This document shows, in pieces, positions 6,908 through 7,064 of a stretch of DNA of 64,000 bases. A program made the translations under genes and the position numbers. Each line of letters starts with the position of its first letter. The first letter of the stretch is position 1. The stretch lies in the IMG/VR virus record IMGVR_UViG_3300005662_000021, positions 32,001 to 96,000 of that record; one strand, written 5' to 3'. Under the pieces are notes generated by a model. The model was not told the origin of the DNA and searched no databases. It saw only the letters and a list, made by a program, of their open reading frames with translations. Source of the DNA: a virus. Lineage: Duplodnaviria; Caudoviricetes.

Positions 6908-7003
6908 ATGAGAACATCGATAAACCATATTAGTAATTCAGTACAACCGCAATTTAAAAATTGTTGGTCAGCGGATTCTTATGGTTCAGGTGGAATCTCG
7001 TGA
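6908..7003 (+). CDS. putative leader peptide (31 aa) of an attenuator
   Basis: MRTSINHISNSVQPQFKNCWSADSYGSGGIS*; followed by terminator with competing pairing. Confidence 0.5.
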   Translation: MRTSINHISNSVQPQFKNCWSADSYGSGGIS

Positions 7004-7031
7004 TGGTAAAAAAGATATTAATTTTTTATAC

Positions 7032-7064
7032 AAACCCTGGACAAAAGACGTTCAGGGTTTTTTT
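7032..7064 (+). terminator. attenuator terminator upstream of tRNA array
   Basis: aaaccctggac/gttcagggttt + T-tract. Confidence 0.75.

What the first reader, a model, noticed from the sequence alone, without database searches (positions are those of the whole stretch)
6908..7064. Leader-peptide attenuator gating entry into the tRNA array
Seen: a 31-codon ORF ends 28 nt before a strong terminator (aaaccctggac/gttcagggttt-T4). The ORF's last codons contain gttcagg, identical to the terminator's 3' arm and able to sequester cctggac. tRNA-Gln follows 30 nt later. Known: this is classical ribosome-coupled attenuation geometry. Inference: ribosome stalling (e.g. after host tRNA cleavage or depletion) switches on phage tRNA transcription.
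Basis: partly seen in the sequence, partly recalled or inferred. Interest (0 to 1): 0.7.

Follow-up and report, generated by a model that had tools for sequence, protein, structure and literature searches.

The report
Attenuator-like leader before phage tRNA-Gln
A freshwater phage carries a conserved 31-codon gene whose RNA can fold in two mutually exclusive ways around a strong transcription stop signal just before its glutamine tRNA gene; this is the classic layout of a ribosome-sensing switch, here placed in front of a tRNA gene.

Summary

The unit is conserved in about 40 contigs, which form seven lineages. Every copy of this tRNA-Gln carries it, even where the upstream genes differ.

- **The ORF is coding.** Within lineages there are 12 synonymous and 7 non-synonymous codon changes (P about 9e-5, dN/dS about 0.16).
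- **The RNA has classical attenuator topology.** Region 1 (codons 3-8) pairs with region 2 (6980-6992). Region 2 can instead pair with the terminator 5' arm (region 3). Regions 3 and 4 form the terminator.
- **Several pairings covary.** Region 2 is kept at the nucleotide level even in a lineage where the reading frame there is shifted.
- **Masking region 1 flips the fold.** With region 1 masked, as by a ribosome, the antiterminator becomes the lowest-energy nascent fold in all lineages.
- **One RNA contig fits termination.** A metatranscriptome contig ends exactly at 7064.

No experiment shows regulated readthrough, and the signal sensed is unknown. "Gating the whole tRNA array" is overstated, because promoter-like sites follow tRNA-Gln.

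I rate a leader-peptide attenuator of tRNA-Gln at about 0.5, as a new variant of a known kind. The scan had noted this same stretch once before in another window.

The parts
6886..6893 (+). TATTTATA promoter-like motif, 14 nt before the ATG
   Evidence: 14 of 19 copies in the window are intergenic. They lie 4-19 nt before the ATG of many genes, including terminase and the portal and capsid region. All lineages keep it as TAYTTATW.
6908..7003 (+). Micro-ORF (leader ORF), 31 codons plus TGA: MRTSINHISNSVQPQFKNCWSADSYGSGGIS
   Evidence: Open for 29-35 codons in all seven lineages. Within lineages there are 12 synonymous and 7 non-synonymous codon changes, P=9e-5, dN/dS about 0.16. Net length differences are multiples of 3. 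No Pfam or PHROG family matches.
6908..6929 (+). Region 1: start codon and codons 3-8 (CAUC 6915-6918, AACCAUA 6923-6929), pairing with region 2
   Evidence: A long-range duplex of -13 to -24 kcal/mol is present in every lineage. The core CAUA/UAUG pairing is shared by all. L006 and L009 differ by a double compensatory change, G-C to A-U.
6946..6968 (+). HP1: conserved hairpin at the tip of the ORF hairpin, covering the QPQ...CW codons
   Evidence: RNAalifold consensus. Two pairs are changed on both sides and kept in lineage F.
6980..6992 (+). Region 2 (UAUGGUUCAGGUG): pairs either with region 1 or with the terminator 5' arm
   Evidence: The nucleotides UGGUUYRG are kept in lineage F although the reading frame there is shifted by 1 nt.
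7006..7031 (+). HP2: A/U hairpin between the stop codon and the terminator, nested inside the 2:3 helix
   Evidence: A hairpin is predicted here in most other lineages from different sequences.
7032..7064 (+). Intrinsic terminator: region 3 (7032-7042), loop, region 4 (7050-7060), U tract to 7064
   Evidence: 143 of 143 cells are paired, with one compensatory G-C to A-U change in lineage F. The hairpin is -14.8 kcal/mol. RNA contig X10 spans 6852-7064 and ends at the last U.
7066..7094 (+). Conserved box TGTTCTTTGACATCGTTGGTAAAATATAA, the 5' leader of tRNA-Gln; function unknown
   Evidence: Conserved in all lineages. In lineage F a 55-nt insert separates it from the terminator, but it stays next to the tRNA. 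It is unique in the window. It is not a usable sigma-70 promoter: the spacer is 12 nt and the TATAAT overlaps tRNA +1.
7095..7168 (+). tRNA-Gln(UUG), the gene downstream of the terminator
   Evidence: ARAGORN; Rfam tRNA 62.9 bits. Every copy found in viral and metagenome contigs carries the module upstream.

Best explanation
This is a leader-peptide (ribosome-mediated) transcription attenuator in front of the phage tRNA-Gln gene.

**Proposed mechanism.**
- Transcription starts at or upstream of the TATTTATA motif and runs through a translated 31-codon ORF.
- The ORF RNA folds into a long hairpin in which codons 3-8 (region 1) hold the 3' segment UAUGGUUCAGG (region 2).
- With region 2 held by region 1, or covered by a ribosome that has reached the stop codon 4-16 nt downstream, the terminator (regions 3:4) forms. 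The RNA then ends at 7064.
- If a ribosome sits on or near region 1 without reaching region 2, region 2 pairs with the terminator 5' arm as it emerges. RNA polymerase then reads on into the 30-nt leader and tRNA-Gln.

**Shown.** All four regions, their conservation, some covariation, the coding signature, and a terminator-coincident RNA contig end.

**Inferred.** That translation actually sets the choice, which codon or condition is sensed, and that tRNA-Gln depends on readthrough.
For: 1. **The unit travels with tRNA-Gln.** The unit of promoter motif, ORF, terminator, box and tRNA-Gln is found in every contig carrying this tRNA-Gln: 18 viral contigs and 21 of 22 metagenome matches. The exception, L228, has a different tRNA. 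It persists where a 204-aa ORF is inserted upstream (lineage D) and where the upstream gene differs (lineage F).
2. **The ORF is coding.** 12 synonymous against 7 non-synonymous changes, P=9e-5. Variability by codon position is 7/14/21.
3. **Region 1:2 pairs in all lineages**. L006 and L009 differ by a double compensatory change. Within-lineage substitutions at paired sites are 12 kept and 2 broken.
4. **Region 2:3 is conserved.** The same aligned segment is the best partner of the terminator arm in all 8 distinct sequences. The changes are transitions that keep G:U or Watson-Crick pairs. Lineage F changes arm, anti-arm and region 2 together and keeps region 2 in a different reading frame.
5. 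**Masking region 1 selects the antiterminator.** In nascent-transcript folds with region 1 masked, 2:3 is the lowest-energy structure, with 6.1-8.0 of 8 pairs expected in every lineage. The 5' arms of three ordinary terminators in the window mostly stay unpaired.
6. **Stop codon position is constrained.** It always lies 4-16 nt after region 2 and before the terminator.
7. **One RNA contig ends at the U tract.** It stops exactly at 7064.
8. **The host group is plausible.** Leader-peptide attenuation is reported as likely in flavobacteria (PMC9723704). The window carries Bacteroidota-type promoters.
Against: - There is no direct evidence for regulated readthrough.
- There is no run of regulatory codons. 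Only Q13 and Q15 match the downstream tRNA, and both lie in the HP1 stem, which alone explains their invariance.
- The peptide is under purifying selection. That points to a role for the peptide itself rather than a plain leader.
- Lineage C has a G-G mismatch in the middle of the 2:3 helix.
- Without masking, equilibrium folds favour 1:2 clearly only in the window lineage.
- The antiterminator is only 7-8 bp, against an 11-bp terminator.
- The conserved box next to the tRNA could be an unrecognised promoter, which would make readthrough unnecessary.
- The lineages are related, so the per-lineage tests are not independent.
Confidence: 0.5

Rival explanations
1. The unit is a stand-alone small-protein gene with its own promoter and an ordinary, constitutive terminator. 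The 31-aa peptide is the functional product. The long hairpin only stabilises the mRNA or limits its translation. tRNA-Gln is made from terminator leak or from an unrecognised promoter in the 7066-7094 box.
For: The peptide is under purifying selection, dN/dS about 0.16. The promoter motif and terminator form a complete unit, as for other genes in the window. An RNA contig ends at the terminator. The conserved box stays with the tRNA in lineage F.
Against: It does not explain why region 2 stays complementary to the terminator 5' arm through transitions and a joint change in lineage F. It also does not explain why those nucleotides are kept when the frame shifts. Complementarity to a terminator arm should otherwise be selected against. 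The strict 1:1 linkage with tRNA-Gln also goes unexplained. The peptide matches no family.
Confidence: 0.25
2. The unit is a translation-independent RNA switch or protein-controlled terminator. A phage or host factor binds HP1 or region 2 and decides between 1:2 and 2:3; the neighbouring Ro60-like RNA-binding protein is one candidate. The ORF is translated but is not the sensor.
For: HP1 and the 1:2, 2:3 and 3:4 pairings are conserved. The start codon is partly buried in the hairpin in several lineages.
Against: The module persists in lineage F without the Ro60-like neighbour within the 2-kb contig. No Rfam family, T-box included, matches at E up to 1. The conserved position of the stop codien just after region 2 is explained better by ribosome occlusion.
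Confidence: 0.1
3. The unit is a non-coding or dual-function small RNA of about 160 nt (long hairpin plus terminator), comparable to the stable RNAs in the T4 tRNA cluster. On this reading the ORF is incidental.
For: The RNA is strongly structured: z = -4.7 for 6900-7070. Its pairs are conserved. It lies in a tRNA cluster.
Against: The excess of synonymous changes, the open frame in all lineages and the in-frame length changes argue for translation.
Confidence: 0.07

Closest known systems
E. coli trp operon leader (trpL) and related his, leu, thr, ilv and pheA leader-peptide attenuators
   Same: A short translated ORF. Four RNA regions with mutually exclusive 1:2, 2:3 and 3:4 pairings. Region 1 lies inside the ORF and the stop codon lies close to region 2. 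The terminator is intrinsic with a U tract, and the antiterminator is weaker than the terminator.
   Different: The downstream gene is a tRNA, not an amino-acid biosynthesis operon. There is no tandem run of regulatory codons. The peptide sequence is under purifying selection. The unit is phage-encoded, with a probable Bacteroidota host. An extra hairpin (HP2) is nested in the 2:3 loop.
pheM leader of the E. coli pheST operon
   Same: Leader-peptide attenuation applied to a gene of the translation apparatus rather than to biosynthesis (from established knowledge).
   Different: That leader controls a synthetase and has a Phe-rich leader. Here the target is a tRNA gene and no codon run is present.
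Nascent-peptide sensors (TnaC of tnaCAB, ErmCL, cat leader peptides)
   Same: A conserved leader peptide sequence whose identity matters, with ribosome position deciding the fate of downstream expression.
   Different: I noticed no resemblance to the arrest motifs I recalled (recalled from memory; no search was run). Those systems use Rho-dependent termination or translational attenuation rather than an intrinsic terminator with an antiterminator.
T4 species 1 and 2 RNAs (rnaC, rnaD) in the T4 tRNA cluster
   Same: Small structured RNAs encoded beside phage tRNA genes.
   Different: Those are non-coding. This unit has a clear coding signature and an alternative pairing to its terminator.

Membership tests
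Leader-peptide (ribosome-mediated) transcription attenuator | Short ORF on the same transcript, upstream of the regulated gene | tested here: met
   ORF 6908-7003 lies 91 nt before tRNA-Gln. It is present in all lineages.
Leader-peptide (ribosome-mediated) transcription attenuator | The ORF is translated | tested here: inconclusive
   The evolutionary coding signature is strong: 12 synonymous against 7 non-synonymous changes, P=9e-5. No ribosome or peptide data are available.
Leader-peptide (ribosome-mediated) transcription attenuator | Intrinsic terminator between the ORF and the regulated gene | tested here: met
   An 11-bp stem plus U7 at 7032-7064, conserved. An RNA contig ends at 7064.
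Leader-peptide (ribosome-mediated) transcription attenuator | Antiterminator (2:3) mutually exclusive with the terminator | tested here: met
   7-8 bp in six of seven lineages, at the same aligned site, with transitions that keep pairing. It is the lowest-energy fold in nascent transcripts when region 1 is masked.
Leader-peptide (ribosome-mediated) transcription attenuator | Region 1 inside the ORF that sequesters region 2 (1:2) | tested here: met
   A long-range ORF hairpin in all lineages, with a double compensatory change in lineage B.
Leader-peptide (ribosome-mediated) transcription attenuator | Cluster of regulatory codons matching the controlled pathway | tested here: not met
   Only two Gln codons (Q13, Q15), separated by Pro, with no run. 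Their invariance is explained by the HP1 stem.
Leader-peptide (ribosome-mediated) transcription attenuator | Readthrough responds to ribosome position or charged-tRNA supply | not testable with these tools
   This needs reporter fusions or Term-seq in a host.
T-box or other Rfam cis-regulatory RNA | Match to a curated covariance model | tested here: not met
   Over 6000-9000 at E up to 1, only tRNAs and chance-level hits were found.
Non-coding small RNA | No codon-level selection | tested here: not met
   dN/dS is about 0.16 and the frame is kept open.

The most novel reading that the evidence does not exclude
The leader is a cognate feedback sensor. The invariant Gln codons (QPQ), or a nearby conserved codon such as His7 in region 1, slow the ribosome when the matching charged tRNA is scarce, for example after host tRNA depletion or cleavage. 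This opens the terminator so that the phage makes its own tRNA-Gln. That would be the first tRNA gene controlled by leader-peptide attenuation. The conserved peptide may add a nascent-chain contribution to stalling.
Probability: 0.15. Interest if true: 0.85.

Novelty: new variant of a known kind. Interest (0 to 1): 0.62.

Why it matters
Phage tRNA arrays are widely thought to compensate for codon-usage mismatch or for host tRNA loss, but how their expression is regulated is largely unknown.

A conserved attenuator of the trp type in front of a phage tRNA gene would show that a phage can tune tRNA supply to the state of translation. It would extend leader-peptide attenuation to a tRNA target and to phages of Bacteroidota-type hosts. 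It would also provide a compact, testable RNA switch.

The work also defines a new conserved 29-35-aa phage peptide family under purifying selection.

Tried and rejected
- **Sigma-70 reading of TTGACA-N12-TATAAT (7072-7095).** Rejected. The spacer is 12-13 nt, the -10 overlaps tRNA +1, the scan does not list it, and the box is unique in the window.
- **Host-type promoter or TATTTATA motif between 7004 and 7094.** I recognised none when reading the sequence.
- **Pairing of the box with the tRNA or with upstream RNA.** Partners are not conserved.
- **Rfam.** No family matches beyond tRNAs.
- **Peptide families.** No Pfam or PHROG hit.
- **Whole genome.** None is held for this window.
- **blastn against phage records.** It found only a 75% match of the tRNA to a crAss-like phage tRNA-Gln.
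- **Collection scan with TGTTCNTTGACATYGT.** Too unspecific.
- **Relaxed peptide-motif scan.** It returned only chance hits besides the known contigs.
- **Scan for relatives of the L019 module.** None found.
- **Metatranscriptome contigs.** No RNA contig covers 7065-7431 in four runs. This is not evidence of termination, because tRNAs are poorly captured and contigs drop rare forms.
- **Pure non-coding RNA reading.** Rejected on the coding signature.
- **Y-RNA idea for 6900-7070.** Dropped. The Ro60-like partner RNAs noted earlier end at about 6860, and the module persists in lineage F with a different gene immediately upstream.

Full report
**Observation.**
- A 31-codon ORF (ATG 6908, TGA ending at 7003) is followed after 28 nt by an 11-bp hairpin (7032-7060, one G:U, 7-nt loop). 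The T run extends to 7064. tRNA-Gln(UUG) starts 30 nt later at 7095.
- It is the only + strand terminator-like site in 5000-13000.
- GTTCAGG at 6984-6990 repeats the 3' arm and can pair with CCTGGAC of the 5' arm.
- In this sequence alone that complementarity is only marginal (8% of shuffles do as well). The case therefore rests on comparison.

**Context.**
- The window is a large, AT-rich, uncultured freshwater phage. Its terminase is 26-29% identical to those of Microcystis, Flavobacterium and T4-like cyanophages. The runs holding it are freshwater and subsurface metagenomes.
- Host-type promoters of the Bacteroidota kind (TTTG-N20-TAATTTTG) lie at 7580-7611, 8843-8874 and 17647-17678. They match the flavobacterial sigma-A -7 box described in PMC9723704.
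- A second motif, TATTTATA, lies 4-19 nt before the ATG of many genes, including terminase and the portal and capsid region. 14 of its 19 copies are intergenic. The micro-ORF has this motif at 6886-6893.
- The gene upstream (5027-6487) is a DUF2828/DUF7788 protein, annotated 'RNA-binding protein' in PHROGs. I did not re-test that.

**Conservation of the unit.**
- Scans with the neighbour protein, the peptide motif and the tRNA itself gave about 40 contigs. These form seven lineages, labelled A to F plus a variant of E.
- Every contig with this tRNA-Gln carries the ORF and terminator upstream. The one exception among the matches, L228, has a different acceptor stem and is another tRNA.
- The unit stays with tRNA-Gln when a 204-aa ORF is inserted upstream (lineage D) and when the upstream gene is different (lineage F).
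- In lineage F a 55-nt insert separates the terminator from a conserved 29-nt box (7066-7094 in the window). The box stays next to the tRNA.

**The ORF is coding.**
- It is open for 29-35 codons from a conserved ATG in all lineages, while the other frames contain stops.
- Net length differences are multiples of three.
- Within lineages I count 12 synonymous and 7 non-synonymous codon changes, where 21% of sites are synonymous (P = 9e-5, dN/dS about 0.16).
- The consensus is M-[KR]-x-x-x-[NK]-H-[IN]-x-x-S-[VI]-Q-P-Q-x-x-x-C-W. It matches no Pfam or PHROG family.

**RNA structure.**
- RNAalifold finds two consensus helices: HP1 (6946-6968) and the terminator. Both-sided changes are kept in both.
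- The 5' half of the ORF, including the start codon and codons 3-8, pairs with the 3' half in every lineage (-13 to -24 kcal/mol). The core CAUA/UAUG pairing is common to all.
- L006 and L009 differ by a double compensatory change (G-C to A-U) between codon 4 and region 2. Within-lineage substitutions at paired positions keep the pair 12 times and break it twice.

**The alternative pairing.**
- Region 2 (6980-6992) can pair instead with the terminator 5' arm. This helix is 7-8 bp in six lineages. Lineage C has one G-G mismatch.
- The variation in region 2 is C/U and A/G, which keeps pairing with the same partner.
- In lineage F the terminator pair G-C has become A-U and region 2 carries the matching U.
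- Lineage F reads this segment in a frame shifted by one nucleotide, giving an unrelated peptide tail, yet it keeps UGGUUUAG. The constraint on region 2 is therefore at the RNA level.
- In all eight distinct sequences the best partner of the terminator arm in the upstream 130 nt is this same aligned segment.

**Nascent-transcript folds.**
- I folded transcripts ending just before the 3' arm. With region 1 removed, as a ribosome would mask it, the 2:3 helix is the lowest-energy structure in every lineage. Between 6.1 and 8.0 of 8 pairs are expected.
- With region 1 present, the window lineage folds 1:2 instead (0.01 of 8). The other lineages are mixed.
- The 5' arms of three ordinary terminators elsewhere in the window stay mostly unpaired in the same test.
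- The stop codon lies 4-16 nt after region 2 in all lineages, so a terminating ribosome would cover or abut region 2.

**RNA data.**
- One metatranscriptome contig spans 6852-7064 and ends at the last U of the tract. Other RNA contigs cover 6635-6918.
- This is a weak hint that the terminator works and that RNA also enters the ORF from upstream. Contigs cannot give levels.

**Interpretation.**
- I put this reading at about 0.5. Nothing shows that readthrough is regulated. There is no run of regulatory codons. The peptide is itself under selection. The conserved box could hide a promoter.
- The main rival (0.25) is a stand-alone small-protein gene with an ordinary terminator.
- A factor-controlled switch (0.1) and a non-coding or dual-function RNA (0.07) follow.
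- 'Gating the tRNA array' is too broad, because promoter-like sites follow tRNA-Gln directly.
- The trigger is unknown. The two Gln codons matching the downstream tRNA are suggestive, but they sit in the HP1 stem. His7 is better placed within region 1.

**Novelty.** In three full-text searches I found no paper describing leader-peptide attenuation of a tRNA gene or in a phage tRNA cluster. I class the unit as a new variant of a known kind.

Noticed in passing
window 3478, 11997, 18186, 22144, 25087, 28788, 32416, 39895, 43838, 45623, 48572, 51189, 54704, 55417: The motif TATTTATA lies 4-19 nt before the ATG of many genes, often right after a terminator. It is a likely phage-specific promoter element and is the reverse complement of the T4 late-promoter word TATAAATA.
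   Followed up: partly
window 7580-7611, 8843-8874, 17647-17678: Bacteroidota-type promoters (A run, TTTGGAA, 20 nt, TAATTTTG) inside the tRNA array. Two of them end about 9-18 nt before tRNA-like genes. They point to a Bacteroidota host.
   Followed up: partly
window 7066-7094: A 29-nt box (TGTTCTTTGACATCGTTGGTAAAATATAA) is conserved as strongly as the tRNA and always abuts tRNA-Gln +1. It is unique in the window and its function is unknown.
   Followed up: partly
window 7176-7207: A hairpin AAAGTGGT/ACCACTTT followed by A8 lies just after tRNA-Gln and is conserved in lineages D and F. It has no U tract, so it is not a standard terminator. The GGAACT-type promoter-like site follows at 7217.
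   Followed up: no
L019 8950-9120: A different phage has a non-homologous 35-codon ORF with the same layout. A 5' codon segment pairs with CCUCGGCU, that segment can pair with the terminator 5' arm GACCGAGG, and a strong terminator follows. A small Y-like RNA and a tRNA-Gln come next. No relatives were found to test conservation.
   Followed up: partly
window about 6549-6600: A roughly 52-nt insertion is present in the window, L001-L003 and L005, but absent from L004 and the other lineages. It contains a tRNA T-arm-like sequence (GGTTCAAACC) and an acceptor-like end.
   Followed up: no
window 6366-6666: RNA contigs from two metatranscriptome studies both end at 6666, just after the Ro60-like gene and before a T-rich stretch.
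   Followed up: no
window 45827-48571: The portal ORF (914 aa) carries an HNH-endonuclease-like region (residues about 118-284) ahead of the portal domain (414-812).
   Followed up: no
window 36191-38221 (- strand): A Lon-like ATP-dependent protease (phrog_4871, E 9e-244) is encoded on the opposite strand to almost all other genes.
   Followed up: no
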